From IMG/VR virus record IMGVR_UViG_2563366969_000006: a DNA stretch of 19,074 nucleotides, one strand, 5' to 3'. The translations under genes and the position numbers were made by a program. The stretch is from a virus. Its lineage: Duplodnaviria > Heunggongvirae > Uroviricota > Caudoviricetes. Shown piece by piece: positions 1 through 19,074 of this stretch. The number at the start of each line of letters is the position of its first letter. The first letter of the stretch is position 1. The notes under the pieces were generated by a model, which saw only the letters and a program-made list of their open reading frames with translations, made no database searches and had not been told where the DNA came from.

Positions 1-625
1 TTATTTACAAAAAAATGGGGAAGTATTACGGCGATTGCGAAAAGTCTGAAGCGCTTGAATTAAGATAATATAGAAAATCAGATACAACAAAAATGGCAGG
101 TAGATGATGTTAAGATAAATTGGAGCGGGCGAAGGGAACAATACAACATCACACAAGGCCAGTAATAGCGCGAATCCTGCGAGTTCTAAAATCAATTCTA
201 TACACATTTCTATACACATTTATCCCTCGCTTGAGGGTTATGCGTCATCGTTATCGGCTATCTCGCTGGTGGATGATCACGGATGGCCTGATATCTACAG
301 CCGCCTTAAAAAGCTGTACCCGACAAGCATTACTGCGTATCGGGTTCGTTCGCTCTTTCTACTCGTGGCAGATGAGTTTATCGGTGTGATTTTATCGGGC
401 GAGGGTATTGTATCAGGCATCCCCTTTTCTATGCAGATTTGCATAGTTCCGAATGGTGGCGTTATGGAAGCCTCCCATATCAGCATCATGCCCACCAGCG
501 TGAAGTATTTTTTTATTTCGCGGGTGTAAAAATTTGACGAGGCGGGCGGTCCCATAAGCAATGGATTGTAGGGATTTCGCTCCCCCCCTCCTGAATGCAA
601 TTTTTCGTATATATATACAAAACAG

Positions 626-1798: not shown

Positions 1799-4554
1799 CA
1801 GTTCCCCACCGCCTTTCCAAAATCCGGTGCTCTACGTGGCGCAATAGCACCCGGTTCCCACCAACTCGTTATGTCGAACTCCCGTTGCGCGCGGTCCCTT
1901 ACTCGATCATTGTAACCAGGGTTTGCCATCTCCTGAAGTTGTTGCAATATCAGGTGATTGGTTATCGCTTTCGCATACCACAGGTTTGCGAATGGGGTGA
2001 TCATGCGGGCTGTTTTCAGTGCATCGGCACCGAATGATGTTTCTTCACCCTGTAGAGCCTTCTGTGGGTTAGTAATCAGTAATTTTGTTAACTGCTCTGC
2101 AAAGCTCAACACAGGGCCACCCATAGTGGCACCGATGCTGGAGCCATATTGCGTATGGTCCTGGAAAATAAAATCACCGTAGATACCGAACGAACCACCT
2201 TTCAGTAAAGCCTGAACCCATGTGGTTGGTTTTGTCATATCCAGCGGATCATTACCATTTAACAAACTGTTCATCTGGATCGCAAACATACCAGCAAGAG
2301 TTGTTCCCCCGATATATGAGGCCAGAAATTTAATGGCCGGAACGGTGTCCAAATCCCGTGTTCTGTTAACAAGTTGCCGAAATCCAGCAAATGGGGTTGT
2401 TTTGAAGAGCATGAAGCTCTTCATTAACTCGCCAGCATCATCACGGGCATATGTATCAATACCCGTAGCGGTGGTCACAGCATTGGTCATCTCACCGTGC
2501 GTAATTCCCAGCAATTTCTGGGCTGCTTCAGCGCGTGCATTACGAATCATGCGCGTGATGGTCTGCTCAGCCTCAGCGTCGAATGCTTCTTTCATCCGTT
2601 TCAGGCGTTCTGGAGGGAGATCTCCAAGGGCTGCCAGTGCCTTTTCACTCCCGGCACGAATCCGGGTAATACGGTCTGCCATAATGTCGGCTATTACGTT
2701 ATCGGGCACAGCGTAAATCGCGTCTGGCGTCATCCCCATATGCCCGGCAGTAGTCATCGGCCTGAGTTCTGCCGCTGCCATGATGGCCCAGTCCTCATTG
2801 CTCCATCCCTTGTTAGCCAGAATGGTTTTATCGGTTCCTTTCATATCGTCCAGCGTCTTAAATTTTCTGGTCAGCTCGCCAATGTTTTTGTACATCAGGA
2901 GACCAAACGACGCTTTGTTTGCGCGGTCCATAGCGATCAGCCCGGACCACTTCAGTGTCTTCTCTGCGAACCAGCCAGTTATGCCGCGAGACAAGTCAAA
3001 CCCGCCCATTTTCGAAACCACAGCAGCATGTGAATCCACCAGCAGACCGAGTTCAGCATTCGCCTTTTTGGCATCTCCACTAAACAGGTTTTTGATAGTG
3101 TTAACGGAAAGCCGCATTCCACCACGGGTAAAGCCCAGCGCCTGCGCATTTGCCCGCATAATTGCCTGGTCGCTGGTTGCTGTCAGTACGCTGGTGCCAA
3201 GCATGGCGCTGGTCATCAGGTTACGCAGACCACCAACTGCTGAAGAGAACACACTCGATGAAGCGACACCATTTAGGCCAGCCATTGAGTTGAACATACG
3301 GGCAACTAATTTGGCCTCATCCTCCATTTCTTTTTTGCGTTTCCCGCCTGTTACTGCGCGCTTATAGATGCGATCCAGTACCAGGGAAAAGTTTCTTTCG
3401 GCGTCCGGACCAAAGGCTTTAACGACGCCCAAATCCCTGGATGATGATTGCAGGTGCGACATCATCACCCCCACCAGCGGCTGCTGAGTGTATCGTTCCA
3501 TATAGGCGAAGTGTGACTGCGCATCCTTGAACGCCATCACCCTGTGCTGAGAACCACGGCTCTTTATTCCTCCGGCTCCCATAAATGTACCAGGCTCAAT
3601 TTTGTTTGCCCCATCAGTGGCCTTCGTTTCAAAGATCGCTTCCAGTGCCTGACGGTACTCGACGTCATTCATAATGCTGCCGTCAGGATTAACGTAATTG
3701 CTGCGATCCTGCGTGTTGTAAGCGTCATCAACCCATTTCTGGCGGGCAAACTCAATCGGTGGCTGGCGACCTGAAAGACGTGCTGTAGCTTGCTCTGCCA
3801 CTGGTAACGATGCCAGCCATTCTTCGCGCCCGGCATTGCGAATAAGGTCAGCATCATCCACATATGGCGTATGCCAGTCTTCTCGCAGGCCTATGTCAAA
3901 GCCATTGTCGTTCATCTCATGACGAACACGGCCTGTTACATCCTTCCAAATCTGTGCAATTTTCTTCGCCAGGGGATTCCCGGTATCTTCGCCATATATT
4001 TCTTTCAGGATCTGGAGTTGTGCAGACTTTGCCGCCTGCCTGTCGAATACACTCCGAAACCGCTGCTCTCCAAGCGCCCTGCTCTGCTCGAAGAATTTGC
4101 GGACGTCATCACCTGCTTTTAGAAGTTCAGCACTGAGCTGACGGGACCAGTCCTGATATGCCCCAATTGCAAGTTCTTCAGCAGAAGTAACGGAGATATC
4201 AGCTTTGTCTCTCGATCGTCGGCCAGCAAAAATAAACTGCTGCAAATTAACAGGTGTCTGCTGATCAGGCGGGATGTTAGCATCGAGAGTGTCAGTAATT
4301 TTACTGATGGCGATCGCATTCTGGGCAACACGCTGTCTTTTCTTGTACACATCATGAACCACACGCTGGCGTACCAGTTCTGCTGCATCCATGTATGTTT
4401 GAGCATCAGGAATACCACTTTTGCCTTCTTTGGCATTCTTTCTGTGCACATGCTGCACAGCTTCTTTGATACGATCTTCAATATTTTTCAGCTCATCAGC
4501 CTTTGGCTGGCGACCAAGTGTCTGCGCAATAGCTTCCACACATGCCTGTTTCAT
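1798..4554 (-). CDS. Large hypothetical protein (about 918 aa), Gly/Ala-rich hydrophobic stretches, no NTPase motif; possibly internal-virion/ejection-like
   Basis: Long ORF. Likely start is the ATG at 4552-4554, preceded by GAGGAA and in a TAATG overlap with the upstream stop, rather than the unsupported ATG at 4575. No Walker A found on reading. Confidence 0.75.
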   Translation of the reverse strand: MKQACVEAIAQTLGRQPKADELKNIEDRIKEAVQHVHRKNAKEGKSGIPDAQTYMDAAELVRQRVVHDVYKKRQRVAQNAIAISKITDTLDANIPPDQQTPVNLQQFIFAGRRSRDKADISVTSAEELAIGAYQDWSRQLSAELLKAGDDVRKFFEQSRALGEQRFRSVFDRQAAKSAQLQILKEIYGEDTGNPLAKKIAQIWKDVTGRVRHEMNDNGFDIGLREDWHTPYVDDADLIRNAGREEWLASLPVAEQATARLSGRQPPIEFARQKWVDDAYNTQDRSNYVNPDGSIMNDVEYRQALEAIFETKATDGANKIEPGTFMGAGGIKSRGSQHRVMAFKDAQSHFAYMERYTQQPLVGVMMSHLQSSSRDLGVVKAFGPDAERNFSLVLDRIYKRAVTGGKRKKEMEDEAKLVARMFNSMAGLNGVASSSVFSSAVGGLRNLMTSAMLGTSVLTATSDQAIMRANAQALGFTRGGMRLSVNTIKNLFSGDAKKANAELGLLVDSHAAVVSKMGGFDLSRGITGWFAEKTLKWSGLIAMDRANKASFGLLMYKNIGELTRKFKTLDDMKGTDKTILANKGWSNEDWAIMAAAELRPMTTAGHMGMTPDAIYAVPDNVIADIMADRITRIRAGSEKALAALGDLPPERLKRMKEAFDAEAEQTITRMIRNARAEAAQKLLGITHGEMTNAVTTATGIDTYARDDAGELMKSFMLFKTTPFAGFRQLVNRTRDLDTVPAIKFLASYIGGTTLAGMFAIQMNSLLNGNDPLDMTKPTTWVQALLKGGSFGIYGDFIFQDHTQYGSSIGATMGGPVLSFAEQLTKLLITNPQKALQGEETSFGADALKTARMITPFANLWYAKAITNHLILQQLQEMANPGYNDRVRDRAQREFDITSWWEPGAIAPRRAPDFGKAVGN

Positions 4555-6614
4555 TATGGGTTCCTCAAGAAGCACGCTGCTGCTACAGAATAAACCTTCG
4601 ATTCGTTCTGGACTGTCTTAATCTGTTCATCCAACTCAGCCAGGAGATCAGAAAGTTTTGTCGGGTTTCCGGTTTCCGGGTGAGCTATAGTCAGCTCAGG
4701 ATTGGCAACAGCCATGTCCCTGGCAGCCATAAGGTCATAGCTGTTGGATGAGAGAACCTGCCCTGTATCTGGATCAACGCTGATGTCCCCTCTGTGTTCA
4801 CCAGCCGATGAGAAAGCACTTTCAGCACGAGGGACAGGCGATTCACTAATTGGCTCTGATGATGTTTCGTATCTGACACCATTTTCTTCAAAAACCTTTT
4901 GTATTTCATGGTATTGCTCTTGGTAAGTATCAGATATATCTGATCGCAATGGACCATCAAGCCCTCGCGCCATCCCCCCAACATTTACAGGCTGACCATC
5001 ATTAAGTTGCCTGTATGCTTCATCCATGGCGTCAACATGGCTGTTGATGCTCTCATTGCTGGTATGAAGCACTGGTGACGATTCAATATCGTAATGAAGC
5101 CCCTCATTCAAAATGTGGGCTGCATCAATATCGCTTGGTTTTATTCTTTCCCTCGCCCGGATACCAAAAACTTTTTCTACTGCGGCTTCCAGTTTCATAT
5201 TGCGAAGACGCATACTTACGAGTAACCGTAACTGCTCAGGTGTAACGGTTCCAACCTGAATACCACTGTATCTGAATATATAGGCTTTAAAACCTGAAAT
5301 AATTTTTTCCCATGATGAAACGCTTGTCTTTAGAGATGGATTTACTGCATGTGCGGCAACTTCTTCAGCGTACAACCACTCAGGATATGTTTCAGGGTAC
5401 TCACCCCTTTTCTTATATTCATAATATTGTGACATCCCATATGCAAATTCAGGATAGTCAGAATGCTTGTTTGCAGATTTAAGTACAGCATTAGCTAGCT
5501 TTCTGGCCTTCCAGTCAGGGTAATGGCGCTGCTCAAGATGAAGCGCCTCGTGATGAAGGGTTTCTAACAGTTCTTCATGGTCTTTTAATCCATTAATATT
5601 TATTCTTATTATTGGTTCTTTTCCGGAAGCTACTGTCACATGACCTTTATTCAGAAGTATTTCTCCATCACTATTTTTTATTGCTGGTTCATTAATAAGT
5701 TCTATTACTCCTGAATCAGATAAATCACGAACCATTGACTCAATGTTACCATCAGGAGATTGCTGATAATGTTCACCAAAAGTTGATTTTATTTCTTCTG
5801 CAGAAATGTTCGACTCTGTACCATCATGGTTATTATGGGTAGTCAGGTGATGAACGCCACCAAAGACCCCGCCTAAAACGGCATCGACTAACATCGCCTG
5901 ACCGTCAAATACCCGGTACTGTTTTGCCATCTCCGTGTAGCCTTTTTCCTCCAGTGTTGCGCCTACTGAGTAACGGTTCAGTCCACCGAATCCGGTGTTG
6001 ATTGCCACACCTGAGGCAATGCGCGTTGCCAGTGTGGTGCCGACGGCAGCGGGTAAGGCCATACCCACAGCATTGAAAAGGCTCTGCTGCGTTGCCAGGT
6101 TACGCGCTGTAGCCTCGTCTACTCCCTTCCCTTTAAAATCCTGATAGGACTGCTCATACGTAGAACTGAAGGCTGTAGCAGCGCCGATGAGCGGACCACC
6201 AAACATAGTTGTTCCGATTGCAGGAACAAATTTACCAAGCTCATTTAATACCTCAGCCGCCATTCCCTGGCTGCCTGCATCAGGCTTCACATAGCTGCGG
6301 GCATCCTGTAACTGTTTTCCGATCGTGTCGTATGTATCATTCAGTGTTTTGTCAGCATCAGGGAACATCTCCCGAAAAATATTAACTGTCGGTGCCACGT
6401 CTGCGGTAAATGCCGGATCGCTAATCAGACGCTTGCTGAATCCGACGGCAGACTGCGCGAGACCGAGAGCCCCCTCCGCCACGCCGCTCAAAAGTGCAGT
6501 ACCTGAACCCTGGAAGGGAGTCGGATCGTAGTCTTCTGGCCTTGCTGGGTTGGCAACTGTTTTGTCGTCAATCCATGCCTGACCTTCTGGAGCCAAAGAA
6601 AAAACATCAGACAT
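4554..6614 (-). CDS. Large hypothetical protein (686 aa) with an HExxH (HEALH) zincin-like motif and Gly/Ala-rich hydrophobic region
   Basis: Long ORF; TAATG overlap with the upstream 843-aa gene; GAGGG ribosome-binding site; ETLHHEALHLEQRH encoded around 5534-5560; no P-loop. Confidence 0.75.
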   Translation of the reverse strand: MSDVFSLAPEGQAWIDDKTVANPARPEDYDPTPFQGSGTALLSGVAEGALGLAQSAVGFSKRLISDPAFTADVAPTVNIFREMFPDADKTLNDTYDTIGKQLQDARSYVKPDAGSQGMAAEVLNELGKFVPAIGTTMFGGPLIGAATAFSSTYEQSYQDFKGKGVDEATARNLATQQSLFNAVGMALPAAVGTTLATRIASGVAINTGFGGLNRYSVGATLEEKGYTEMAKQYRVFDGQAMLVDAVLGGVFGGVHHLTTHNNHDGTESNISAEEIKSTFGEHYQQSPDGNIESMVRDLSDSGVIELINEPAIKNSDGEILLNKGHVTVASGKEPIIRININGLKDHEELLETLHHEALHLEQRHYPDWKARKLANAVLKSANKHSDYPEFAYGMSQYYEYKKRGEYPETYPEWLYAEEVAAHAVNPSLKTSVSSWEKIISGFKAYIFRYSGIQVGTVTPEQLRLLVSMRLRNMKLEAAVEKVFGIRARERIKPSDIDAAHILNEGLHYDIESSPVLHTSNESINSHVDAMDEAYRQLNDGQPVNVGGMARGLDGPLRSDISDTYQEQYHEIQKVFEENGVRYETSSEPISESPVPRAESAFSSAGEHRGDISVDPDTGQVLSSNSYDLMAARDMAVANPELTIAHPETGNPTKLSDLLAELDEQIKTVQNESKVYSVAAACFLRNP

Positions 6615-9145
6615 TATTCAACCCTCACGACAATAGCTTTATTGGTTCTGGGATCTGTTGCCCAGCGTCCGCTACCATTTACAAGCCGATACCGGTTATT
6701 GCCGATATTAACTGGCGTGAAATTTGACACTGCATTTACGTTAAGTCCGGCATCTTTCAGTGCTTGTTTCGCAGATGTGGTATAGCGATCTTTGAAAGTA
6801 GATTTATCCATGCCAAAAGGCATTACAACGTCGCCGCCATTAAAACCATTGTATATACCGCCAGTAGCATACTTCACGGCATCAGCTACAATGTCTGTAT
6901 CAGGCATACTGGTTCTTACCGTAGAGGCATCACCAGATTGATAAGCTATTCCTGCGTAAGCGGCTTTGAAAAGGCTATAACTGATCTGGCGTAACTGCGG
7001 GTTACGGGCAAATGCATTACCTACCTGTTCGTCGAAAGCGTCTTTCATCTTATCTTCGCTCGGCAACTGTACCGGAGTTATGCCCGCATTCTTCATGGCC
7101 TTCGTCGGATTCAGTAGTTGGTCGCCGGAAAGAATAACCTTTGCAACGTCGTACTTGTTCATCGTCGGCTTATACCCGATGAACTGACTATATGGGATCG
7201 TCGGCCTGGTGTTGTCGTACTGGTTATCCGGCGTGCCCAGCAGCAGCGCAGAATAGGCTGTTGCCGCACTGTTCGGAGCAATTACAGATGCCACCTGCCG
7301 TATTGCTGGCGCAGGCAGCTTCTCCCCCATGCTCTGCAACAGTTTAATTGTCTGGTCAACGTTCTGAGTGCCGCGCACCTGCTGTGCCAGCGCAGCCGCC
7401 TCTTCACTGTTGAGGAGTGGGGCATTAATTCCCAACGCGCGTAAGCTTTCCTGCGACGAGAAACGGTTAGCCACCTCGGCAGTGATGTCGTCAGGGTTGT
7501 TGCTGGTGATCGGCTTATAGGCTCCGATTTCCACCGCTGCACTAAACGGATTATTCTGCCTCTGGGTTATTACCTTCGTGGCTGCCGCCGATACCCGGTC
7601 GAATAACTCCGCACGAGACGCATACCCCTCCCCTGTCTCACCAGTATCCGGGCGTAATTGCTCAACATATGCGGTAATGCTGCTTGTCGGCATGTTGCGG
7701 AAAGAGCCTATATACTGTCCGGCGATCTGCAAATTTCTGAACTCGGTATATCGCAGGTTTCCTTCTCTGACACCATAAGCAGCAATGAACTCACCCTCAC
7801 CAGGCGGGTTAGGAAATTCAACGCCACGCATATACGCAGCCGTTGCATCGCGAACCCGGCTTTCGAGCATCGTTCTATATTCAGCCTGCTGCTGTCTGGC
7901 TAATGCATCCGTCTGTCGCAACACGCTGGCCTGATCTGATTCACTTAAAGCATCGAACCAGGCTACACCGGTATAACGTTTATTTTTTGTCGGTAGCTGA
8001 GAAAGCCCCAGTGCGGCACTAACGCCAGCGGCCAATTGCTGATCACTGTACGGCTGACTGCCTTGCTCATGATGAATAATTGCTTTGCACAGAGATTTCA
8101 GTGTGTCAGGATTTGATGCGTCAAGCGGCTGGTCAGGAGTTACACCGAGCTGAGCACATACTGCCCGTATATAAGCATCAGTTTTATTATCATCACTGGC
8201 CGGTGCCCAGCGATTAATTATTTCGCTGATGGTGTCATAACCCTGACGCTGATACGACAGCAAATTGCGACCAAGCGCGCGAATACCGTGTTCAGGGGTT
8301 TCGAATTTGGCAAAGCGACCATCATCACCAGTCTGCCCAACCCACGGATTAGTTTTGCTGTATTCAAGATTGCCGGGGTTATTGTTGCGTATACCGCGGG
8401 TACGATCGGAAGAGCCACTATCTGCTACAGCACGGCGAGATCCAGCAGCAGTATCGCTTAACTCGCCATTTTGCTGTCTTACCTGAAGATAGTTTGCTCC
8501 AATAGCATTTTGAGCAGTTGCTTTTGCTGTTGCTTCTTTAAACTCGATTTTCTTGGCCTGGATTTGCTCGTCGCTCCAGCCATGCGCAATACCGTAATCC
8601 TCAATTTGCTGGAAAGTTTGCGTATTAGCCAATATGTATGCTGCGTTGTCGCCATATAATGCTGAGGCATTTTTACCATTATTCAGCAGTGTCGCCTGAA
8701 ACTGGCCTTCTTCGTAGGCATTTATTTGCCCTATCTCGTACCTCCCGGCCTGCGTAGCGAACTGAATACGCTGCTGCTGCGCCTGCTGCATGAAAGCATT
8801 ACGAGCCTGTTCATCCGGCAGCGACATAGCCAGTTGTTCGATCTGAGCATCAAACTGCTGTGTATACTCATGGCCTTTTCCAATAGCATTTTTCCCTTTC
8901 AGGTTAAGCAATCCTGTTTCAGGATTATTCAGCAGATCACTGCCTGTCTGACTGAGTTTAAGGGATGCCTCCTGAATCAAGGCAATATTGGCACGCTGTT
9001 TTGCCTGACCAAAAACATCAATTGCCTCTGCCCCTGCCCGAACAAAAGCATCACCAATACCTGGCTGAGAAAACGTCTGCAAGCCTGCTGACTGAACTCC
9101 ACGGCTCTCAACCTGACGTCCGGATACTGTTGGTACGACTGGCAT
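6614..9145 (-). CDS. Large hypothetical protein (843 aa), Gln/Ala-rich, with a conserved-looking block GIRNNNPGN...W.G...G.FA.F (possible peptidoglycan-hydrolase-like or virion-associated domain; unverified)
   Basis: Long ORF with a strong AGGAGG ribosome-binding site 6 nt upstream of the ATG; motif block encoded around 8155-8395; no P-loop. Confidence 0.75.
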   Translation of the reverse strand: MPVVPTVSGRQVESRGVQSAGLQTFSQPGIGDAFVRAGAEAIDVFGQAKQRANIALIQEASLKLSQTGSDLLNNPETGLLNLKGKNAIGKGHEYTQQFDAQIEQLAMSLPDEQARNAFMQQAQQQRIQFATQAGRYEIGQINAYEEGQFQATLLNNGKNASALYGDNAAYILANTQTFQQIEDYGIAHGWSDEQIQAKKIEFKEATAKATAQNAIGANYLQVRQQNGELSDTAAGSRRAVADSGSSDRTRGIRNNNPGNLEYSKTNPWVGQTGDDGRFAKFETPEHGIRALGRNLLSYQRQGYDTISEIINRWAPASDDNKTDAYIRAVCAQLGVTPDQPLDASNPDTLKSLCKAIIHHEQGSQPYSDQQLAAGVSAALGLSQLPTKNKRYTGVAWFDALSESDQASVLRQTDALARQQQAEYRTMLESRVRDATAAYMRGVEFPNPPGEGEFIAAYGVREGNLRYTEFRNLQIAGQYIGSFRNMPTSSITAYVEQLRPDTGETGEGYASRAELFDRVSAAATKVITQRQNNPFSAAVEIGAYKPITSNNPDDITAEVANRFSSQESLRALGINAPLLNSEEAAALAQQVRGTQNVDQTIKLLQSMGEKLPAPAIRQVASVIAPNSAATAYSALLLGTPDNQYDNTRPTIPYSQFIGYKPTMNKYDVAKVILSGDQLLNPTKAMKNAGITPVQLPSEDKMKDAFDEQVGNAFARNPQLRQISYSLFKAAYAGIAYQSGDASTVRTSMPDTDIVADAVKYATGGIYNGFNGGDVVMPFGMDKSTFKDRYTTSAKQALKDAGLNVNAVSNFTPVNIGNNRYRLVNGSGRWATDPRTNKAIVVRVE

Positions 9146-9547: not shown

Positions 9548-9573
9548 CAAAAAAAAGCCGGATTGCTCCGGCT
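9548..9573 (-). terminator. Rho-independent terminator separating the replication/SSB/ProQ block from the large operon
   Basis: On the minus strand, stem AGCCGGA / TCCGGCT with a 4-nt loop, followed by a run of 8 T. Confidence 0.7.
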
Positions 9574-9813
9574 CTGTGCTTACTTCTGGTAGTTACGCCA
9601 TACTGATTTCCCGATCCCATCTATCCCCATTTCTTTTTCAGTGCGTTTAAGCGACCGTTTCAGGTCTTCTAAATTATCCGGTTGCTTCGGTGGCCTCTGC
9701 GCCTTCCTGGAACATTCCAGTCGTCGCATTGATATGTAATACCGTTCCTTGTCAGTTCCCCAACTGCATTACTTCACCCCATCGCGCCGCCGCTCTTCGG
9801 TACAGGGTTTTAG

Positions 9814-10230
9814 TTAGCCTCCGACTCTTCCGTAGTGCTGTTCTGGTGGATTCACATAGCCCCTTTCTTGCAGGTATTCGCGAATATCAGACATCAGGAG
9901 ACGGTTAACCGTGCTCTTGTCTTTTCTCCGGTAAAGGCGTCTGGTGATCATGAAGTAGTTAGCAATGATCTCCGGTATATCCCTGACGCTGATACATGCT
10001 GTATGCTGGTCAATAGCTTCAATCATCTCTTCACGAGTTACAAAAGTCTGGCGTAAACGAGTGATCACACCATGTACATCTGAATGATCATTTATACGCT
10101 TATTTTGGCGCTTCGCGCTCTCGACTGTGACACTGACAACAATGTCAACTCTTTGTTTTTCCGCAATTTCATCCACAATGTGATCACCTGCACGGCGACC
10201 ATGTGCGTGATCATTTCTTACTATTTCCAT
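9814..10230 (-). CDS. Hypothetical protein (138 aa), His-rich N-terminus
   Basis: ORF with GGAGGAG ribosome-binding site; overlaps the 3' end of the ProQ/FinO gene by 20 nt; no family recognised. Confidence 0.5.
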
Positions 10231-10708
10231 TCATCTCCTCCAGTAGTTTTCCTGCGTGCGTCTGTTGTAGTGGTGTTACCTCGCCGCACGGCTGGCCTTT
10301 CAGGTCGTAACGCGCGCCACCAGCTACCAGGGCGCGGTAATAGCGCGGAGTCTGCACATAACGCGCCAGCGTTGCGCGTAGTGTTCCCTGTCCGAGTGAA
10401 ATACCTCTCGCGGCAATATCCTGTATCAGGTCGTCAAATATCCCCACCTTAAGCGGCTTAGGTGATTCCTGGCTGAATAATTCAGGCCATAGCTCAATAA
10501 GACGGTTAACGCGTCTGCGGTTTTTACGCTGCTGTTTGGTCATACGCCGCCGCGGTGTTGCTCCTGTGAGCTTCTGCTGTGTGTTCTGGTTATCTGGCAT
10601 CACTTTATGCGCCGATGTGGTTTTATTCTGCTGCTGCGCCGCCTGTGCTGTTTTCTGCGGCGTGCCGTAAATGCCCTTCGGTTTTCTGTTTATGGTCAGC
10701 TTTGTCAT
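10211..10708 (-). CDS. ProQ/FinO-family RNA-binding protein (165 aa) with a basic N-terminal extension
   Basis: The segment [60 protein letters not shown] aligns by eye with the ProQ N-terminal FinO domain (LKIGIFQDL...LRSALRLYTSSWRYL...RVDLDGNPCGE). Confidence 0.7.
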
Positions 10709-10744
10709 GCCTTCCCCTGTAATTACTCTGTTCGCTGTTGTGAA

Positions 10745-11170
10745 TTAAAACGGTATCCCGTCCCCGTACGGATCATCGTGCTGGCCTGTCTGTTGCTTTG
10801 CCCTGTTCAGTGCATCAGTAGCCTGCCCCTGCTGGCCTTTTTTGCCGCCCGGTCGCGCCGTTCGCGCACTGATTACGCTGTCTGCGATAACCTGCCATCC
10901 CTGCCTCGTTTCGCCGTTCTGGCCCGTCCACCGGCTCACCTGCATGTTACCGGCCACGCTCACCAGTTCGCCTTTGTGGTGTTTTGCCAGTGCGTCAGCC
11001 TGTCTGCCAAACGCCAGGACGGATAACCACATCGTCGCCGTTCCGTCATCTGTCTGATTGCATGGAAGGGGGACCGCCATACTCGCCATCGCCATTTGTG
11101 TGCCCTTGCTGGTGGTCTTTAACTGCGGGTCAGCCACCAGCCGCCCGTAAGCTGATATTTGCGCCGTCAT
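10745..11170 (-). CDS. ssb: Single-stranded DNA-binding protein, divergent short form (141 aa)
   Basis: OB-fold-like N-terminal region, Gly/Gln-rich linker and an acidic C-terminal tail ending DDPYGDGIPF, comparable to the SSB DDDIPF tip; GGAGAA ribosome-binding site. Confidence 0.7.
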   Translation of the reverse strand: MTAQISAYGRLVADPQLKTTSKGTQMAMASMAVPLPCNQTDDGTATMWLSVLAFGRQADALAKHHKGELVSVAGNMQVSRWTGQNGETRQGWQVIADSVISARTARPGGKKGQQGQATDALNRAKQQTGQHDDPYGDGIPF

Positions 11171-11232
11171 GCTGTTTGTTCTCCGGTTTTAACGTGATAG
11201 TTACGCTTGTTTACACTCTTACAGTGAAATTT

Positions 11233-11358
11233 TGCGGGTTACAATCGCACATTTGCGGGTTATAACTGCCGTTTTGCGGGTTACGTGCGGGTTATTAATT
11301 TCCTTTTTAATCATTCAGTTAATTAACTTATGCACAGGATAACCCGCATAACCCGCAA
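11233..11358. repeat. Iteron cluster B (putative origin): TGCGGGTTA at 11233-11241, 11254-11262, 11275-11283 and 11286-11294 (21-bp phasing), AT-rich spacer, then inverted ATAACCCGCA copies at 11339-11358
   Basis: Seen directly; lies immediately 3' of the primase/helicase-like gene; same 9-mer as cluster A. Confidence 0.75.
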
Positions 11359-11380
11359 CTTTTTACCTCACACAGGGAAG

Positions 11381-13507
11381 TTAATCTTCTGCTTCAGGCT
11401 GGAACATCAGCACGTAAAAAATATGTTGCTTCCCGCCAATCCTGCCGAGCGCCTTTTTCTTGTAACGGCGGTCGCCTCCCGCTTCCAGCATTCCGGCTGC
11501 ACTCAACGCGCGGGCAAAGTGAGACGGATTAAATCCCTGTGCTATCTCACCCTCAAACACATGCGGGAACGTGTAAAAACGGAACTCGTCATCTTCGTTT
11601 CTGATACTCCCCTTTCTGTATCCGGCAAGGTCTTTAATCGGTAAATCACGCTCGTCGCTGTTTGGATAGGGAAGGTATCGACTGAACCCGAACGACGACA
11701 AAAACGCCTCAGCCTGTTCAACCATCTGTTTAAATTCCCTGTTGCCCGTGCCGAATTCCTTCACCCAGGCATTAAAGTTATGCTGAACTGCATCACGGCA
11801 CGCCTGAACATCCCAGCCTGTAACATGACCGGAAAGCACAAGCGCGGCCTCCAGTACGGCGAATCTTTCCCCCACACGGTGAACCTGCTCGCCGTAGCTC
11901 TCCGGTATCAGGTTGCGCCACCGCTCGCGACATGCCCTTACCGCGTCCTTTGCCTCCTGCTGGTGGCCTGCCAGCCATTTAACCCACTCACGACCTGCCG
12001 CCCCGTGATTTTCTGTCCAGGCATCTTTTAACGCGTCTGCGTGCGCCTTTCCGGTGCTGTATTCGTGAAACTGCGAGGCCTTTTCCATCGGTACGTTAAG
12101 CAGACGGACAAGCTGCCCCGCTTTAATTTTTATCCCTTCCGTTTTGAGGAATGTTTCAACGTCCATTTCTCCGGTGCTGATTGCCACCGTGCGCCAGTGT
12201 TTTATCTCCCTGTTGCCGCCGTCCTTCGCCCCCTGTAATTTCCCGGAACCGTTAAACAGCGTATAGGCTGACGTGGACACCTCCCGTGCGTTTCCGGCCT
12301 GGCCTATTTCATCCAGGGGTAACAGCCCGTCATTATGTGCTTCGGCCTCGTTGGCGATACCTAACGCCGTTCCGTACCAGGTCAGCCGTTGCGCGTCCGG
12401 CTCTCCCCATAAACTTGATGCAATGTTCTGTGTGGTGGTTTTACCTGCTGATGATTGCTCAAAAAGATGAACCCCGAAGCCGTCAGCACCCACCAGCCCG
12501 ATTAATGGTGCAGATAGCGATACCGCCACACCCAGCATCATGGACGGATTACCACCAGCCAGCCGTGCCACGGTATCGCGCCAGCCCTCCGCTGTTCCCG
12601 CCACGGAATAGCCATTAACAGCGGCAGTTTTTCCGGTAAACAGGATGGGTTTCTCTGATTCACCGATGATCGAACCATCCGGCATGATGTACGCACCAAA
12701 ATGCCACCCCGTTGTTGTGCTTAACTGCCATTCCTCATGGTTTCCGCTTAACTGCATCCAGTCAGCCAGGATAGCCCTGTATTTGCCGTTGGTCGTCACG
12801 TTAAGGCCGTGGTCTTTCAGCAACCGCCAGCCGTCACGGTCACCAATGCCTCCGCACGGGACCGCCATTGTAATGACCTCATGGTTTGCTGGTTTTTTCC
12901 AGCGCATCACGCGGTAATGCTCTTTGCCGATTGTTCCTGTTCCCAGTAGTTCAAGCGGAGAACATAACCACGTCTCAGGCCGGATAATTTCGCCTGACTG
13001 CTTGTCCACTTTGGGCGTTACCCAGAAAACACCATCGACGCGACTTTCAACACGAGGCTTTAATTCGTCATCATAATTTCCGGTGAAATTTGTCTTCGCC
13101 GGAAGGTTGATCACCAGACTGTTACCGCGTTCCGCATCATACTTCAGTCCAGCCATGCGCGGAGTCCAGTCCTCCGGCTGCTGATCAACAAAGCTGCGGT
13201 AGCAACGCGCCTCCTTCACACCCGCCACTGCAAGCAGTGTCGCTATCTGTGTAAGGTGCTGCTCTGATATTTCACCAGCACGATAAATGCGCACGTAATA
13301 GCGTCCTTTGTCGATGATTTGCGTGTCTGCCAGACTCGCCAGTTGTTCCGGTCCAAGAATAACTGGATGTGTATCATCTGCCGCAATATGCTTTCCGGCC
13401 CATTCGCTCCACTCTTTCGCATGTGCCCAGGCATCACTACCCGCAAAGATAATCACCTCCGTCATTTTGTCTTTCGGCTGGTGCTTTAAATTCGGTGCGC
13501 GTTTCAT
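11381..13507 (-). CDS. Replication protein, primase/helicase-like (708 aa; P4 alpha-like role, DUF927-type P-loop helicase domain)
   Basis: Walker A-like SSAGKTT and Walker B-like LLPLDE in the central region; ATGA start-stop overlap with the upstream gene; adjacent iterons. Confidence 0.65.
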   Translation of the reverse strand: MKRAPNLKHQPKDKMTEVIIFAGSDAWAHAKEWSEWAGKHIAADDTHPVILGPEQLASLADTQIIDKGRYYVRIYRAGEISEQHLTQIATLLAVAGVKEARCYRSFVDQQPEDWTPRMAGLKYDAERGNSLVINLPAKTNFTGNYDDELKPRVESRVDGVFWVTPKVDKQSGEIIRPETWLCSPLELLGTGTIGKEHYRVMRWKKPANHEVITMAVPCGGIGDRDGWRLLKDHGLNVTTNGKYRAILADWMQLSGNHEEWQLSTTTGWHFGAYIMPDGSIIGESEKPILFTGKTAAVNGYSVAGTAEGWRDTVARLAGGNPSMMLGVAVSLSAPLIGLVGADGFGVHLFEQSSAGKTTTQNIASSLWGEPDAQRLTWYGTALGIANEAEAHNDGLLPLDEIGQAGNAREVSTSAYTLFNGSGKLQGAKDGGNREIKHWRTVAISTGEMDVETFLKTEGIKIKAGQLVRLLNVPMEKASQFHEYSTGKAHADALKDAWTENHGAAGREWVKWLAGHQQEAKDAVRACRERWRNLIPESYGEQVHRVGERFAVLEAALVLSGHVTGWDVQACRDAVQHNFNAWVKEFGTGNREFKQMVEQAEAFLSSFGFSRYLPYPNSDERDLPIKDLAGYRKGSIRNEDDEFRFYTFPHVFEGEIAQGFNPSHFARALSAAGMLEAGGDRRYKKKALGRIGGKQHIFYVLMFQPEAED

Positions 13508-13806
13508 TTCTTGCCCCTGAATGCGTTAATCATGTTCTTTATTACCTGAATATTTGCCCGTGCTTTCTCTTTACTGGTGGGCTTACTGCGTGGTGCTGCA
13601 CATACCAGTGAAAAATCACGCCGGAACTGATGAACGGGCATCACACAGTCATAGTCGTACCCTGCGCGGCGGTATGTAATGTGCCGTTCATACACGGAAT
13701 TAATAACCACGCTGTCGCCATATTTATCCCGGAAAATATCCCCGATCCTGATTTTCGGATGAGTCTGTCCGCTGGCATTTAAGCCAGTAAATTTAATCTT
13801 CTTCAT
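13504..13806 (-). CDS. Hypothetical protein (100 aa) directly upstream of, and coupled to, the replication gene
   Basis: ORF with ATGA overlap to the primase start; occupies the position held by epsilon/orf151 in the P4 operon (position analogy only). Confidence 0.5.
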   Translation of the reverse strand: MKKIKFTGLNASGQTHPKIRIGDIFRDKYGDSVVINSVYERHITYRRAGYDYDCVMPVHQFRRDFSLVCAAPRSKPTSKEKARANIQVIKNMINAFRGKK

Positions 13807-14066: not shown

Positions 14067-14262
14067 AGTATTCCCCCTGACGGATGCGAGCAGTAAATAC
14101 CATCACGCAGCCAGCCGGGGATTGCTGACGGGCTTTCTGTTCGCTGGTGGCCTCGATGTGGATTACGCGCGGTTGTGCCGTGCTCAGGGCGATAAAACGC
14201 CAGATGTATTTATTCAGGTTGTGCGAGTCCCGCCCTTGCGGGTGTGTGGTATGATTTAACAT
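14059..14262 (-). CDS. Hypothetical protein (67 aa), first gene of the replication operon
   Basis: Internal ATG at 14260-14262 preceded by GAGGT; this is the C-terminal part of an implausible 386-aa ORF in the track. Confidence 0.45.
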   Translation of the reverse strand: MLNHTTHPQGRDSHNLNKYIWRFIALSTAQPRVIHIEATSEQKARQQSPAGCVMVFTARIRQGEYYA

Positions 14263-14343
14263 AGCTACCTCGATACGCTTTCTATCGTTGGTGGTTAGAC
14301 GCCCTGCATGTGTTGCGAGCACTGCGGGGCGTTGCTCTTTCAG

Positions 14344-14425
14344 GTGTATTTCACCTTTGCTTTTTAATTTACTCACTGGTGAAATACACTTCAAGCCTTT
14401 TTTTATCATTTTTTTTGCGTATACT
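14344..14425. promoter_or_regulatory. Divergent promoter/operator region: perfect 12-bp inverted repeat GTGTATTTCACC (14344-14355) / GGTGAAATACAC (14378-14389); candidate minus-strand promoter (-35 TTGAAG, -10 TAAATT) and plus-strand -10 TATACT (14420-14425)
   Basis: Inverted repeat seen directly; promoter hexamers are by-eye matches to consensus. Confidence 0.5.
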
Positions 14426-14692: not shown

Positions 14693-14890
14693 ATGACTGA
14701 CAAATCATTAAAGAAATTATCCTCATCCAGGAAAAAACAACGCAAAAATGCGGTAAGCGAACAAGAACAGGAAAGATTTGCGCCATGTGCGTTTGTCCTT
14801 GAGAAGTTCTTAAAAGAGTACAGGCGCACAAAAATGGAATCGCATACCTGGAAAACATCGCAGTATGGCGATGCTAAAGAGCAGGAATAG
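14693..14890 (+). CDS. Small basic hypothetical protein (65 aa)
   Basis: ORF downstream of the 59-aa gene, weak ribosome-binding site; shares a duplicated 3' end (AKEQE-stop) with it; followed by a terminator. Confidence 0.35.
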   Translation: MTDKSLKKLSSSRKKQRKNAVSEQEQERFAPCAFVLEKFLKEYRRTKMESHTWKTSQYGDAKEQE

Positions 14891-16508: not shown

Positions 16509-16706
16509 TCAGGCAGCCGTTCCGCGTGATTCGGCAATACGCTGATTGATCCATTCGTCAATTTCACTTTCAACGAAAGCAATCGCTCGCGAGCCAATTT
16601 TAACTGATGCAGGAAATTTACCTTGCCCCATAAGGCGATAAATCCATGCCTTGCTATATCCAGTTCTACGCTGAACTTCTGTTAAACGAATAAGCGTATT
16701 TGACAT
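16509..16706 (-). CDS. alpA: AlpA-family transcriptional regulator / excisionase-like protein (65 aa)
   Basis: Size, position next to a P4-type integrase, and pattern (LTEVQRRTGYSKAWIYRLMGQGKFP...ESEIDEWINQR) characteristic of AlpA. Confidence 0.8.
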   Translation of the reverse strand: MSNTLIRLTEVQRRTGYSKAWIYRLMGQGKFPASVKIGSRAIAFVESEIDEWINQRIAESRGTAA

Positions 16707-16775: not shown

Positions 16776-16918
16776 ACCCTCAGGCCTAATGGTTACCGGA
16801 AGGAAATTAACCCTAAGGGTGATGGTAATCGGGAGGAAATCTACCCTAAGGGTGATGGTAAAATTGACGGGGAAGATAAAAAAATACCCTCAGGGTAACA
16901 GTAAATCACCCTCAGGGT
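16776..16918. promoter_or_regulatory. Array of four palindromic operator-like sites ACCCT-N-AGGGT (16810-16820, 16843-16853, 16886-16896, 16908-16918) plus a partial site at 16776-16784, in the alpA upstream region
   Basis: Seen directly; sites 1-2 share the longer unit ACCCTAAGGGTGATGGTAA; located in the 227-bp intergenic region 5' of alpA. Confidence 0.55.
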
Positions 16919-16933
16919 ATGCGGTATGGTGCG

Positions 16934-17737: not shown

Positions 17738-17859
17738 ACCTCAGCGTCCTCTACTGTAGTGGCTGTGCCAGCCCGTCGAGGTATACGGTTTTTCGGGAGC
17801 GACCCTAGACACAGCTTTTTCTTTCGTCGCTCAAAGTCTACTACTGTATACTCAACCAG

Positions 17860-19074
17860 TCATCCACATTTTCCGAACTTGCCATGCACCACGTTGCCGC
17901 CCTGTTCCAGTGAGTCCATATAGTCGGCGTACCACTGGAGCATCTCGCGCCGCCCGTCCAGATATTGCGCATGATTGTACGTGCCACGAATTGAGTTCTT
18001 ATCAACGTGTGCAAGCTGCGTTTCTATCCACGCGGTGTTATAGCCCTGCTCATGTAAAATCGTGCTCATCGTGTGCCGGAACCCATGACCAGTAACGCGC
18101 CCAGAATAGCCAATACGACGAATAAGCACGTTCATCGCCATTTCACTCATCGGCTTACTGTGCTGGATTCGACCAGGGAAAATAAACTGATACTGCCCCG
18201 TCATGTGTTTTAACTGTTCCAGAATAGCGATCGCCTGTTCTGAAAGCGGCACACAATGAGGACGGCGCATCTTCATTCGTTCTTTAGGCACTTCCCACAA
18301 ACGATTATCAAAATCGATCTCCTGCCATTCTGCCTGTCGTAATTCCCCTGGCCGGAGCCCTGTCAGAATCAATAATCGCATACCCAGCTTGACGATCTGG
18401 CTTCCGGTGTACGTATTAAGAACGCGGAAAAATTCCGGCAGTTCGTCGGCCTTCAAATAGGCATAATGCTCTTTTTTGTGTGGAGCAAATGCGCTTGCCA
18501 GATCTGGTGCGGGGTTATATTCAGCGCGTCCGGTGATGATTGCGTACCGGAACACCTCGCCGCATCGCTGGCGAACCTTACGCAATTTTTCGGTCGCCCC
18601 ACGGTCATTAAGACGGGAGAGAACCGCAAGCAACTCCATTGGCTTAATTTCTGCGATCGGCCTGCCGCCAATGTACGGAAAAACGTCTTTTTCAAACGTC
18701 TCGATCATTTCCTCGGCGTATGACGATGACCACCTGTCGATCCTCTTTTCATACCATTCGCGAGCGATACCCTCAAAAGTATTGCCAAATTTGCTCGCCT
18801 GTTCTCGCTTTTGAGCTTTTCTGGCCTCACTTGGATTTATACCACCAGCAAGAAGCCTTTTAGCCTCATCCCTTGCCGCTCTGGCATCAGACAGAGACAC
18901 ATCAGGGTACACGCCCAACGACAACATTTTGGGCTTTCCTGCAAATCTGTAACGTAGTCGCCACCCTTTCGAGCCGTTCGGCTCAATGAGTAACGAAAGC
19001 CCGTTACCGTCATTGAGTGTATAAGCCTTTTCTTTCGGCTTCGCGCGCCTGATAGCAAGGTCTGAAAGCAGCAT
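17860..19074 (-). CDS. int: Tyrosine recombinase, P4-family integrase (404 aa)
   Basis: N-terminus LSDLAIRRAKPKEKAYTLNDGNGLSLLIEPNGSKGWRLRY and C-terminal catalytic region HGFRHTMST...LAHVDKNSIRGTYNHAQYL follow the P4/CP4-57 IntA pattern; start codon coincides with the window end. Confidence 0.9.
   Translation of the reverse strand: MLLSDLAIRRAKPKEKAYTLNDGNGLSLLIEPNGSKGWRLRYRFAGKPKMLSLGVYPDVSLSDARAARDEAKRLLAGGINPSEARKAQKREQASKFGNTFEGIAREWYEKRIDRWSSSYAEEMIETFEKDVFPYIGGRPIAEIKPMELLAVLSRLNDRGATEKLRKVRQRCGEVFRYAIITGRAEYNPAPDLASAFAPHKKEHYAYLKADELPEFFRVLNTYTGSQIVKLGMRLLILTGLRPGELRQAEWQEIDFDNRLWEVPKERMKMRRPHCVPLSEQAIAILEQLKHMTGQYQFIFPGRIQHSKPMSEMAMNVLIRRIGYSGRVTGHGFRHTMSTILHEQGYNTAWIETQLAHVDKNSIRGTYNHAQYLDGRREMLQWYADYMDSLEQGGNVVHGKFGKCG

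What the first reader, a model, noticed from the sequence alone, without database searches (positions are those of the whole stretch)
10211..11170. SSB and a ProQ/FinO-family RNA chaperone encoded next to the origin of a satellite-like island
SSB with a FinO-domain protein is a pairing better known from conjugative-plasmid leading regions. On a phage-satellite-like element it suggests RNA-based regulation (for example of an antisense or immunity RNA) and protection of single-stranded DNA on entry. The SSB tail (DGIPF) is divergent from the chromosomal DDDIPF tip.
Basis: partly seen in the sequence, partly recalled or inferred. Interest (0 to 1): 0.5.

Follow-up and report, generated by a model that had tools for sequence, protein, structure and literature searches.

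The report
Satellite island's SSB and FinO-like genes
Two small genes beside the replication origin of a 19-kb phage-satellite island in E. coli really do encode a single-stranded-DNA-binding protein and a FinO/ProQ-type RNA-binding protein; the SSB looks like an ordinary replication helper, and the FinO-like protein belongs to a common but unstudied subfamily whose RNA target is unknown.

Summary
Window 10745-11170 (-) encodes an SSB (Pfam 2e-16; TIGR00621 above its cut-off). Window 10211-10708 (-) encodes a ProQ/FinO-domain protein (Pfam 1.3e-24; PDB sequence hits to ProQ, FinO, RocC and NMB1681). Both lie just downstream of an iteron origin.

The element is a ~19.1-kb Gram-negative PICI-type satellite at tRNA-Gly. 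Gene order is int, alpA, antA/bro, icd-like, DUF4222, DUF927 primase-helicase, ori, ssb, finO-like, perC, then late genes like those of epsilon15/phiV10.

Among related loci the FinO-like gene always follows the primase/helicase in the 73 IMG/VR loci that could be judged. SSB sits directly upstream in only about half. SSB presence tracks helicase type (25/31 with DUF927 or AAA_25, 7/35 with D5_N). PerC follows in 59/80.

The leading-region analogy fails. The SSB is not of the conjugative-plasmid type, finO in an F-like plasmid follows traX, and PICIs transfer as packaged dsDNA.

My best reading: the SSB is a replication accessory, and the FinO-like protein is a FinO-architecture RNA chaperone of a distinct subfamily acting on an unidentified RNA. 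Its function is uncharacterised, but both genes are already annotated and have been noted in passing in the literature. Interest is modest.

The parts
10745..11170 (-). ssb: 141-aa island-type single-stranded DNA-binding protein with an OB fold, a Gly/Gln-rich linker and the tail DDPYGDGIPF
   Evidence: Pfam SSB 2e-16. TIGR00621 above its cut-off. 25% identity to the E. coli SSB OB fold, with equivalents of W54, F60 and W88 kept. The clade tail consensus is DDPYGD[NG]IPF. dN/dS 0.07-0.20.
10211..10708 (-). finO-like: 165-aa ProQ/FinO-domain protein. It has an N-terminal LTINRKPKG motif, a disordered Q/T-rich linker, a basic [10 protein letters not shown] helix and a FinO domain (residues ~64-160). 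It has no Tudor C-terminal domain.
   Evidence: Pfam PF04352 1.3e-24. PDB hits to ProQ, FinO, RocC and NMB1681. G89, Y123 and R133 are invariant. It scores below the NCBIfam ProQ and FinO cut-offs. AF2 model plus Foldseek top hit FinO 1dvo.
10709..10744 (-). 36-nt ssb/finO-like spacer carrying the finO-like ribosome-binding site (GGGGAAGG). It has no terminator, so the two genes are co-transcribed.
   Evidence: Sequence. No minus-strand terminator between 11170 and 10211.
11171..11380 (.). Iteron origin of replication: four direct TGCGGGTTA(Y) repeats (11233-11295), an AT-rich spacer (11296-11338) and two inverted ATAACCCGC repeats (11339-11356)
   Evidence: GC falls to 0.39-0.43 here. The position downstream of pri matches what is described for GN-PICIs (PMC10111431).
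11381..13507 (-). DUF927 primase-helicase (708 aa), the island's replication initiator/helicase
   Evidence: Pfam DUF927 1.1e-46. PHROG 1139 'DNA primase' 6.4e-174. Weak match to the SCCmec Cch1 replicative helicase.
13504..13806 (-). DUF4222 gene that always precedes the primase/helicase in this island family
   Evidence: Pfam DUF4222 3.8e-18. Conserved synteny.
9814..10230 (-). orf138, overlapping the finO-like stop by 20 nt. It is an insertion between finO-like and perC, seen only in this island type.
   Evidence: PHROG 63 'anti-repressor Ant' 2.3e-26 over residues 57-127. Present only in the 4 near-identical IMG/VR loci.
9580..9806 (-). Frameshifted perC-family activator gene. In most relatives it is intact and translationally coupled to finO-like.
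   Evidence: RefSeq annotates it as 'PerC family, frameshifted'. The C-terminal half matches Pfam PerC at 4.1e-14. PerC lies directly downstream of FinO-like in 59/80 loci.
9554..9575 (-). Intrinsic terminator ending the early/replication operon (GCCGGA-GCAA-UCCGGC followed by U8)
   Evidence: Equivalent terminators follow PerC, or the small ORF that takes its place, in L002, L012 and L016.
16509..16706 (-). alpA regulator, a GN-PICI hallmark
   Evidence: Pfam Phage_AlpA 2.4e-19
17860..19074 (-). Tyrosine integrase (P4-type, with an Arm-DNA-binding domain)
   Evidence: Pfam Phage_integrase, Phage_int_M and Arm-DNA-bind_3. tRNA-Gly lies next to it in L001.
120..138 (+). Distal att repeat TTGGAGCGGGCGAAGGGAA, a copy of the tRNA-Gly 3' end

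Best explanation
The interval holds the last conserved genes of the early/replication operon of a ~19-kb Gram-negative PICI-type phage satellite. The satellite is integrated at tRNA-Gly in E. coli.

Shown:
- The gene order is int, alpA, antA/bro, icd-like, DUF4222, DUF927 primase-helicase, iteron ori, ssb, finO-like, (orf138), perC, terminator, then a 'late zone' of three Uetakevirus-like virion genes.
- ssb and finO-like are separated by 36 nt with no terminator between them.

Inferred for the SSB: it is the satellite's own replication accessory. After excision it coats the ssDNA exposed by the DUF927 helicase at the adjacent origin. Its clade-specific DDPYGD[NG]IPF tip keeps the terminal IPF, which SSBs use to dock partner proteins.

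Inferred for the FinO-like protein:
- It is an RNA chaperone with FinO-type architecture: a basic N-terminal extension plus a FinO domain, with no Tudor domain.
- It belongs to a subfamily distinct from both FinO and ProQ.
- It binds the hairpin-plus-3'-tail of a dedicated RNA, from the island or from the helper phage, that has not yet been identified.
- In this way it sets a post-transcriptional step of the satellite cycle.
- The most likely targets are expression of the coupled PerC-type activator and late zone, or the level of the replication operon.

The two genes are neighbours because both sit in the replication/regulation zone. They are not an obligate pair.
For: Domain evidence.

RNA-binding pocket:
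- Residues equivalent to RocC Gly52, Tyr87 and Arg97 recognise the 3' terminal nucleotide of the terminator (PMC9674577).
- Their equivalents here, G89, Y123 and R133, are invariant across the subfamily and in FinO and ProQ.

FinO-like architecture:
- The N-terminal motif LTINRKPKG resembles FinO's VLTLKRKTEG, and there is no C-terminal domain.
- AF2 predicts residues 1-48 as disordered, followed by a helical domain. The best PDB fold hit is FinO 1dvo.

PICI identity: plus the published GN-PICI layout of int, alpA, Bro zone, pri, ori, (SSB), late zone (PMC10111431).

Context of the FinO-like gene:
- It lies immediately downstream of a primase/helicase in all 73 IMG/VR loci that could be judged, with three different helicase types.
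- PerC is directly downstream in 59/80 loci. The called gene coordinates overlap by 4-11 nt in four loci.

SSB tracks the helicase type: 25/31 SSB+ with DUF927 or AAA_25, 7/35 with D5_N, Fisher p=1.3e-6 on de-duplicated loci.

Both genes are under purifying selection.

Precedent: FinO-family proteins on plasmids control replication or transfer through a single antisense RNA, as with FinO/FinP and FopA/Inc-repZ (PMC9977716).
Against: - No partner RNA was found. The only Rfam hit in the window is the int-alpA motif, which has no 3' U-tail and sits on an RBS. No RNA family co-occurs with FinO-like loci.
- No conserved antisense terminator or promoter was seen around the cassette.
- The operon terminator also occurs in an island without FinO (L009), so it is not a specific clue.
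- The structure model is only of moderate confidence (pLDDT 66.8), and Foldseek TM-scores are low at 0.2-0.28.
- Some FinO-like paralogues sit in CP4-like islands with no primase.
- perC is a pseudogene in this particular island.
- Nothing here shows that the island is induced, replicates or is packaged.
Confidence: 0.6

Rival explanations
1. Leading-region-like function. The SSB protects incoming single-stranded island DNA, and the FinO-like protein acts as in conjugative plasmids. On this view the cassette is borrowed from plasmid leading regions.
For: FinO-domain and SSB genes both occur on conjugative plasmids. The FinO domain is ~31-34% identical to F-type FinO.
Against: - The island SSB hits only 47 plasmid records, 2 of them conjugative.
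- finO in an F-like plasmid lies after traX, not in the leading region.
- The island has no relaxase, T4SS or oriT genes.
- PICI-type satellites move as packaged dsDNA (established knowledge; PMC10111431).
- SSB presence tracks helicase type.
Confidence: 0.04
2. The FinO-like protein is a weapon or host-reprogramming factor rather than a self-regulator. It would bind helper-phage or host RNAs, for example ProQ-dependent sRNAs, phage antisense RNAs or mRNA 3' ends. The effect would be to interfere with the helper or to reshape host expression together with the PerC-type activator.
For: - ProQ-type proteins can bind hundreds of RNAs through terminator hairpins (PMC9977716).
- The pocket residues are conserved.
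- The conserved coupling with PerC, a family known as virulence-gene activators, points to trans effects (PMC13612085).
- Paralogues exist in non-replicative CP4-like islands.
Against: - The FinO-type architecture, without the ProQ linker and Tudor domain, is the one associated with single dedicated partners.
- The position is strict, at the end of the replication operon, in all 73 IMG/VR loci that could be judged.
- There is no direct evidence either way.
Confidence: 0.2
3. ssb, finO-like and perC are accessory cargo (morons) with no role in the satellite life cycle. They would be kept by hitch-hiking or for host benefit.
For: - The literature lists ProQ and PerC among PICI 'accessory' genes (PMC13612085).
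- SSB is absent from half of the FinO-bearing loci, and FinO is absent from some SSB-bearing islands.
- perC is frameshifted here.
Against: - The position between ori and the operon terminator is fixed across three helicase types and several late-zone types.
- Both genes are under purifying selection.
- SSB co-varies with helicase type.
Confidence: 0.12
4. The FinO-like protein is a nucleic-acid-binding replication factor acting at the origin, on DNA hairpins, R-loops or primer RNA. It would not be a post-transcriptional regulator.
For: - The gene lies immediately next to the ori, or next to ssb, in every PICI-type locus.
- It has a strongly basic segment before the domain.
- Vibrio episomal satellites carry a ProQ/FinO-like gene together with parA and repA (PMC13230959).
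Against: Every characterised FinO-domain protein binds structured RNA 3' ends (PMC9674577, PMC9977716). The pocket that recognises the RNA 3' terminal nucleotide is intact.
Confidence: 0.04

Closest known systems
FinO of F-like plasmids (PDB 1DVO), the chaperone of FinP antisense RNA
   Same: - Similar size and architecture: a basic, partly disordered N-terminal extension, then a FinO domain and a short C-terminal helix.
- A shared N-terminal L-T-[IL]-x-R-K motif.
- Conserved Gly/Tyr/Arg 3'-end pocket.
- Encoded on a mobile element.
   Different: - Only 28% identity overall.
- 57 bits against the 136-bit cut-off of the NCBIfam FinO subfamily.
- It sits on a phage satellite beside the ori rather than after traX on a conjugative plasmid.
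- No FinP/traJ-like antisense pair was found.
ProQ of E. coli/Salmonella (PDB 5NB9 N-terminal domain)
   Same: It is the best sequence match to the FinO domain (1.9e-14; 1.1e-18 with the family profile). K35, R58, R69, Y70 and R80 equivalents are kept.
   Different: - No linker or Tudor C-terminal domain.
- It has an N-terminal extension that ProQ lacks.
- It scores below the ProQ equivalog cut-off (59 against 127 bits).
- It is island-borne and variable, not a core chromosomal gene.
FopA (YafB) of IncI1 plasmid pCol1B9, PcnR of IncI2 plasmids, and the ProQ/FinO-like genes of Vibrio episomal satellites
   Same: These are FinO-domain proteins encoded by mobile elements and tied to control of the element's own replication (PMC9977716; PMC13230959). 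That is the functional model adopted here.
   Different: - In FopA, the only one of these whose mechanism I read, control works through an antisense RNA acting on a rep mRNA leader.
- Here replication uses a primase-helicase and iterons, and no antisense RNA is known.
Gram-negative PICIs (EcCICFT073-type, cf-PICIs, helper-embedded PICIs)
   Same: int, alpA, Bro zone, primase, ori downstream of pri, an optional SSB in the replication zone, and a downstream zone of captured helper late genes (PMC10111431).
   Different: - The late zone here holds three epsilon15/phiV10-type internal-virion genes rather than capsid or packaging genes.
- The FinO-like gene is not discussed in that paper. It is only listed as accessory in PMC13612085.
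E. coli chromosomal SSB and the SSBs of conjugative plasmids
   Same: OB fold with equivalents of W54, F60 and W88, a flexible Gly/Gln-rich linker, and a C-terminal tip ending IPF.
   Different: - 25% identity, and 141 aa against 178 aa.
- No W40 equivalent.
- The tip is DDPYGD[NG]IPF rather than DFDDDIPF.
- It is essentially absent from conjugative plasmids.

Membership tests
ProQ/FinO domain superfamily (PF04352) | Domain HMM match above the curated threshold | tested here: met
   86.7 bits against a cut-off of 27, E=1.3e-24, profile positions 5-102 of 109
ProQ/FinO domain superfamily (PF04352) | Conserved pocket for the RNA 3' terminal nucleotide (Gly in the beta-turn, Tyr, Arg; RocC G52/Y87/R97) | tested here: met
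   G89, Y123 and R133 are invariant in 20 subfamily members and align with ProQ G37/Y70/R80, FinO and RocC. Their role is described in PMC9674577.
ProQ/FinO domain superfamily (PF04352) | FinO fold | tested here: inconclusive
   The AF2 model has mean pLDDT 66.8, with the domain at ~70-87. The top Foldseek PDB hits are FinO 1dvo (E=7.4e-4, prob 0.99), then RocC and NMB1681, but TM-scores are only 0.2-0.28.
ProQ/FinO domain superfamily (PF04352) | Binds structured RNA (a terminator hairpin with a 3' tail) | not testable with these tools
FinO proper (NCBIfam NF010317 subfamily) | Score above the subfamily cut-off, with a location in the tra region of a conjugative plasmid and a FinP partner | tested here: not met
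   57 bits against a cut-off of 136. The locus is a chromosomal satellite. finO follows traX in an F-like plasmid.
ProQ (NCBIfam NF003434 equivalog) | Score above the equivalog cut-off, with the linker and C-terminal Tudor-like domain | tested here: not met
   59 bits against a cut-off of 127. The protein ends ~5 residues after the domain helix, with no C-terminal domain.
Bacterial SSB family (PF00436 / TIGR00621) | OB-fold HMM match above the cut-off | tested here: met
   Pfam 60.4 bits against 26. TIGR00621 61.2 bits against 53.95.
Bacterial SSB family (PF00436 / TIGR00621) | Acidic C-terminal tip ending in (D)DDIPF, used to dock partner proteins | tested here: inconclusive
   The tip is DDPYGDGIPF. 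The terminal IPF and three Asp residues are kept but are interrupted. The clade consensus is DDPYGD[NG]IPF, while the Salmonella relative has FDDDVPF. Partner binding cannot be tested here.
Conjugative-plasmid leading-region SSB | Close relatives encoded in the leading regions of conjugative plasmids | tested here: not met
   tblastn finds 47 plasmid records at E<=1e-5, 39 of them non-mobilizable and 2 conjugative.
Gram-negative PICI (phage-inducible chromosomal island) | Co-oriented int, alpA and pri, with ori downstream of pri, a size of ~10-20 kb, and att repeats at the integration site | tested here: met
   The layout matches PMC10111431.
Gram-negative PICI (phage-inducible chromosomal island) | Induction by, and packaging by, a helper phage | not testable with these tools
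   There is only an indirect hint: the late zone is homologous to Uetakevirus late genes.

The most novel reading that the evidence does not exclude
The FinO-like protein, found at the end of the replication operon in every related PICI-type locus examined, is the chaperone of a satellite- or helper-encoded regulatory RNA that has not yet been seen. That RNA would gate the satellite's replication or the switch to its late/PerC-controlled genes. This would be the first RNA-chaperone-based control circuit in PICI-type phage satellites and a third functional class of FinO-domain protein, after the plasmid and chromosomal ones.
Probability: 0.25. Interest if true: 0.6.

Novelty: new member of a known kind. 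Interest (0 to 1): 0.3.

Why it matters
DNA similar to at least one of the two genes is present in 2401 of 5426 complete E. coli genomes, at up to 10 places per genome. I found no functional study of this FinO-domain subfamily in the open-access library that could be searched. Known FinO-domain proteins on mobile elements (FinO, FopA) control transfer or copy number through one dedicated RNA. If the PICI version works the same way, it would add a post-transcriptional layer to satellite-helper biology and offer a simple one-protein, one-RNA system to study. The SSB result is more routine. It supports the view that some PICI replication modules, those with DUF927 or AAA_25 helicases, bring their own SSB.

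Tried and rejected
1. Rfam scans of the whole window and of sub-regions at permissive thresholds. The only hit is the int-alpA motif at 17748-17815. It has no U-tail and abuts an RBS, so I rejected it as an obvious FinO ligand.

2. Rfam scan of 11 diverse FinO-bearing loci. No C4/IsrK or other family co-occurs.

3. Terminator and hairpin scan on both strands around the cassette in 9 loci.
- A sense terminator after PerC recurs, but it is also present in a FinO-less island.
- The antisense 'terminators' inside ssb and finO are weak and can be explained by coding-sequence conservation.

4. A FinP/traJ-like antisense RNA at the finO/perC junction. It was seen in one locus only (L002), so I rejected it.

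5. The conserved leader hairpin upstream of the icd-like gene (about window 14300-14335). It is widely conserved but has no U-tail and is also present without FinO, so it was not pursued.

6. Genome-collection scan for relatives. It returned only 3 loci and was of little use.

7. PADLOC. There are no defence-system matches for SSB, FinO-like, orf138, orf267 or the large ORFs.

8. A 17.9-kb 'plasmid' record carrying a FinO-like fragment (CP088625). It looks like a chromosomal fragment, not an excised island.

9. The reading of the window as an epsilon15-like prophage. I rejected it because only three late genes are shared and the element is 19 kb with PICI architecture.
Full report
**Observation**

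The interval 10211-11170 contains two minus-strand ORFs at exactly the stated coordinates.

The upstream ORF (10745-11170, 141 aa) is an SSB:
- Pfam SSB E=2e-16.
- NCBIfam TIGR00621 61.2 bits against a cut-off of 53.95.
- PHROG 44 at 1.8e-38.
- 26 PDB SSB chains at E<=1e-3.

It is a distant relative of E. coli SSB, with 25% identity over the OB fold. Equivalents of W54, F60 and W88 are kept, but W40 is not. Its tail ends DDPYGDGIPF.

The downstream ORF (10211-10708, 165 aa) carries a ProQ/FinO domain:
- Pfam PF04352 E=1.3e-24, residues 64-162.
- PDB sequence matches to ProQ NTD 5nb9 (1.9e-14), FinO 1dvo (4.3e-11), NMB1681 and RocC.
- All of these are stronger with a 20-member family profile.

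Both genes evolve under purifying selection. dN/dS is 0.07-0.20 for ssb and 0.25-0.36 for finO-like.

**Surroundings**

The window matches E. coli chromosomes at 100% identity. In strain AH19D088 the element lies between yqeG and actS, next to a tRNA-Gly gene. A 19-bp direct repeat, TTGGAGCGGGCGAAGGGAA, occurs at the tRNA end and at window 120-138. This delimits an island of ~19.1 kb.

Nearly all genes are on the minus strand. In transcription order they are:
- Integrase (17860-19074).
- An Rfam int-alpA RNA motif (17748-17815).
- orf267.
- alpA (16509-16706).
- antA and bro antirepressor-type genes.
- An icd-like gene.
- DUF4222.
- A 708-aa DUF927 primase-helicase (11381-13507).
- ssb, finO-like and orf138.
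- A frameshifted perC.
- A strong intrinsic terminator (9554-9575).
- orf68.
- Three large ORFs homologous to the last three late-operon genes of Uetakeviruses, phiV10 p18-p20.

Between the primase stop and the ssb start lie four direct TGCGGGTTA(Y) iterons, an AT-rich spacer and two inverted copies.

This is the published layout of Gram-negative PICIs: int, alpA and pri co-oriented, ori downstream of pri, SSB counted in the replication category, and a downstream zone of captured helper late genes (PMC10111431). 'Satellite-like island' and 'next to the origin' are therefore correct.

**How fixed is the pairing?**

I looked at FinO-like homologues in Salmonella, Citrobacter, E. ruysiae, Serratia and E. 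coli and at 80 IMG/VR loci.

- *Position.* In all 73 IMG/VR loci with enough upstream sequence, the FinO-like gene lies just downstream of a primase/helicase. Three different helicase types are involved: D5_N/DUF5906, DUF927 and AAA_25.
- *SSB.* An SSB is directly upstream in 36 of 75 loci that could be judged.
- *PerC.* A PerC gene is directly downstream in 59 of 80. In the four loci whose called gene coordinates I read, it overlaps the finO-like gene by 4-11 nt.
- *No PerC.* Of the 21 loci without PerC, 19 matched the capsid or portal probes. In the one capsid-forming PICI whose gene calls I read (L012), another small ORF follows finO-like.
- *SSB against helicase type.* After de-duplication, SSB presence depends strongly on helicase type. 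It is present in 25/31 loci with DUF927 or AAA_25 and in 7/35 with D5_N (Fisher p=1.3e-6). The loci are related, so this p-value is only a guide.
- *SSB without FinO.* A 93%-identical SSB occurs without FinO in an O157:H7 island embedded in a prophage terminase gene.
- *FinO without a primase.* FinO-like paralogues occur in CP4-like islands that lack a primase.

So SSB belongs with the replication machinery. The FinO-like gene is a separate, more constant feature of the same zone. Its tightest partner is perC, not ssb.

**The FinO-like protein**

Its architecture is FinO-like rather than ProQ-like:
- A conserved N-terminal motif, M-T[10 protein letters not shown], compared with FinO's V-L-T-L-K-R-K-T-E-G.
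- A variable Q/T-rich segment that AF2 predicts to be disordered (residues 1-48).
- An invariant basic stretch, T-K-x-Q-R-K-N-R-R-R, that starts the first helix.
- The FinO domain.
- A short C-terminal helix, with no linker or Tudor domain.

In the RocC-RocR crystal structure, Gly52, Tyr87 and Arg97 form the pocket for the 3' terminal nucleotide of the terminator (PMC9674577). The equivalent residues here, G89, Y123 and R133, are invariant.

The protein scores far below the NCBIfam cut-offs for ProQ (59 against 127) and FinO (57 against 136). It is therefore a distinct subfamily. At the 50%-identity cluster level there are about 20 representatives at E<=1e-30, against 4331 for the whole superfamily at E<=1e-3.

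The structure prediction is of moderate quality. Its best PDB matches are FinO, RocC and NMB1681, but TM-scores are low. I count the fold as consistent rather than proven.

**The SSB**

The clade has its own conserved tip, DDPYGD[NG]IPF. The Salmonella relative has the canonical FDDDVPF.

Known phages carry only distant relatives, at 32% identity or less for full-length matches. Only 47 plasmid records match, and 2 of them are conjugative. In an F-like plasmid, finO follows traX. The leading-region analogy is therefore not supported. PICIs are transferred as packaged dsDNA, so 'protection of ssDNA on entry' is unlikely by inference.

**Mechanism**

Shown:
- Gene identities and gene order.
- Co-transcription geometry: a 36-nt spacer with an RBS and no terminator.
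- The operon terminator.
- An intact RNA 3'-end pocket.
- Co-variation of SSB with helicase type.

Inferred:
- The SSB supports origin-dependent replication of the excised island alongside the DUF927 helicase.
- The FinO-like protein binds a hairpin-plus-3'-tail RNA and sets a post-transcriptional step. This would work as FinO does with FinP, or FopA with Inc-repZ (PMC9977716).
- The likeliest targets are the PerC/late-zone switch or the level of the replication operon.

I could not identify the RNA. Rfam finds nothing suitable. Terminator scans found no conserved antisense element. The conserved icd-leader hairpin and the operon terminator also occur without FinO.

**What is already known**

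RefSeq already annotates both genes. A 2026 survey lists ProQ/FinO-like and PerC genes as accessory genes of Enterobacter PICIs (PMC13612085). A 2026 Vibrio study notes a ProQ/FinO-like gene on episomal satellites (PMC13230959). I found no functional study in the library.

DNA similar to the cassette is common. 2401 of 5426 complete E. coli genomes have a match to the 960-bp interval. 171 of them have a single match covering at least 80% of it, which means both genes.

**Verdict**

This is a new, uncharacterised member of known kinds, sitting in a known type of element. Interest is modest. The RNA-chaperone question is worth an experiment, and the SSB is routine.

Noticed in passing
window 1798-9145 (-): Three large ORFs (843, 686 and 925 aa) are homologues of the last three late-operon genes of Uetakeviruses (phiV10 p18-p20, which that record likens to epsilon15 genes; internal virion or 'head' proteins, one with a transglycosylase-like region). 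They form the satellite's late zone. There are no capsid, portal or terminase genes. 7 of 80 FinO-bearing IMG/VR loci carry them. This suggests a podovirus helper and ejection/internal proteins supplied by the satellite.
   Followed up: partly
window 17748-17815 (-): An Rfam int-alpA RNA motif (RF02996, 46.9 bits against a gathering score of 35.8) lies between the int stop and the orf267 start. Its 3' end runs into the orf267 Shine-Dalgarno sequence and there is no U-tail, so here it looks like a 5'-UTR element.
   Followed up: partly
window 16790-16925: Five copies of the palindrome ACCCT(G/T)AGGGT lie in the 227-nt spacer upstream of alpA. They are probably operator sites for a regulator, possibly AlpA itself. 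The spacer is 99.6% identical in island L010.
   Followed up: no
window 9580-10230 (-): perC is frameshifted in this island. Only its C-terminal half (9580-9729) matches Pfam PerC, at 4e-14. An extra ORF, orf138 (PHROG Ant-like, 2e-26), is inserted between finO-like and perC and overlaps the finO-like stop by 20 nt.
   Followed up: partly
L009 (E. coli O157:H7 NZ_CP040572, 1831136-1849558): An island with a 93%-identical SSB but no FinO-like gene is inserted inside a prophage terminase gene. It carries a prohead protease/capsid fusion gene, which makes it a helper-embedded PICI of the kind described in PMC10111431.
   Followed up: partly
window 14262-14345 (-): The 5' leader of the icd-like gene contains the hairpin ACGCCCCGCA...TGCAGGGCGT. 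It is conserved at 85-93% nucleotide identity in more than 50 related loci that have otherwise mosaic modules. It matches no Rfam family, C4/IsrK included.
   Followed up: partly
window 14693-14890 (+): A small plus-strand gene (65 aa), divergent from the early operon, has DNA matches next to the FinO-like genes of CP4-like islands L005 and L011. Those islands may therefore be deletion derivatives of this island type.
   Followed up: no
window 11381-13507 (-): The DUF927 primase-helicase has a weak match (1e-9) to Cch1, the SCCmec cassette-chromosome replicative helicase.
   Followed up: no
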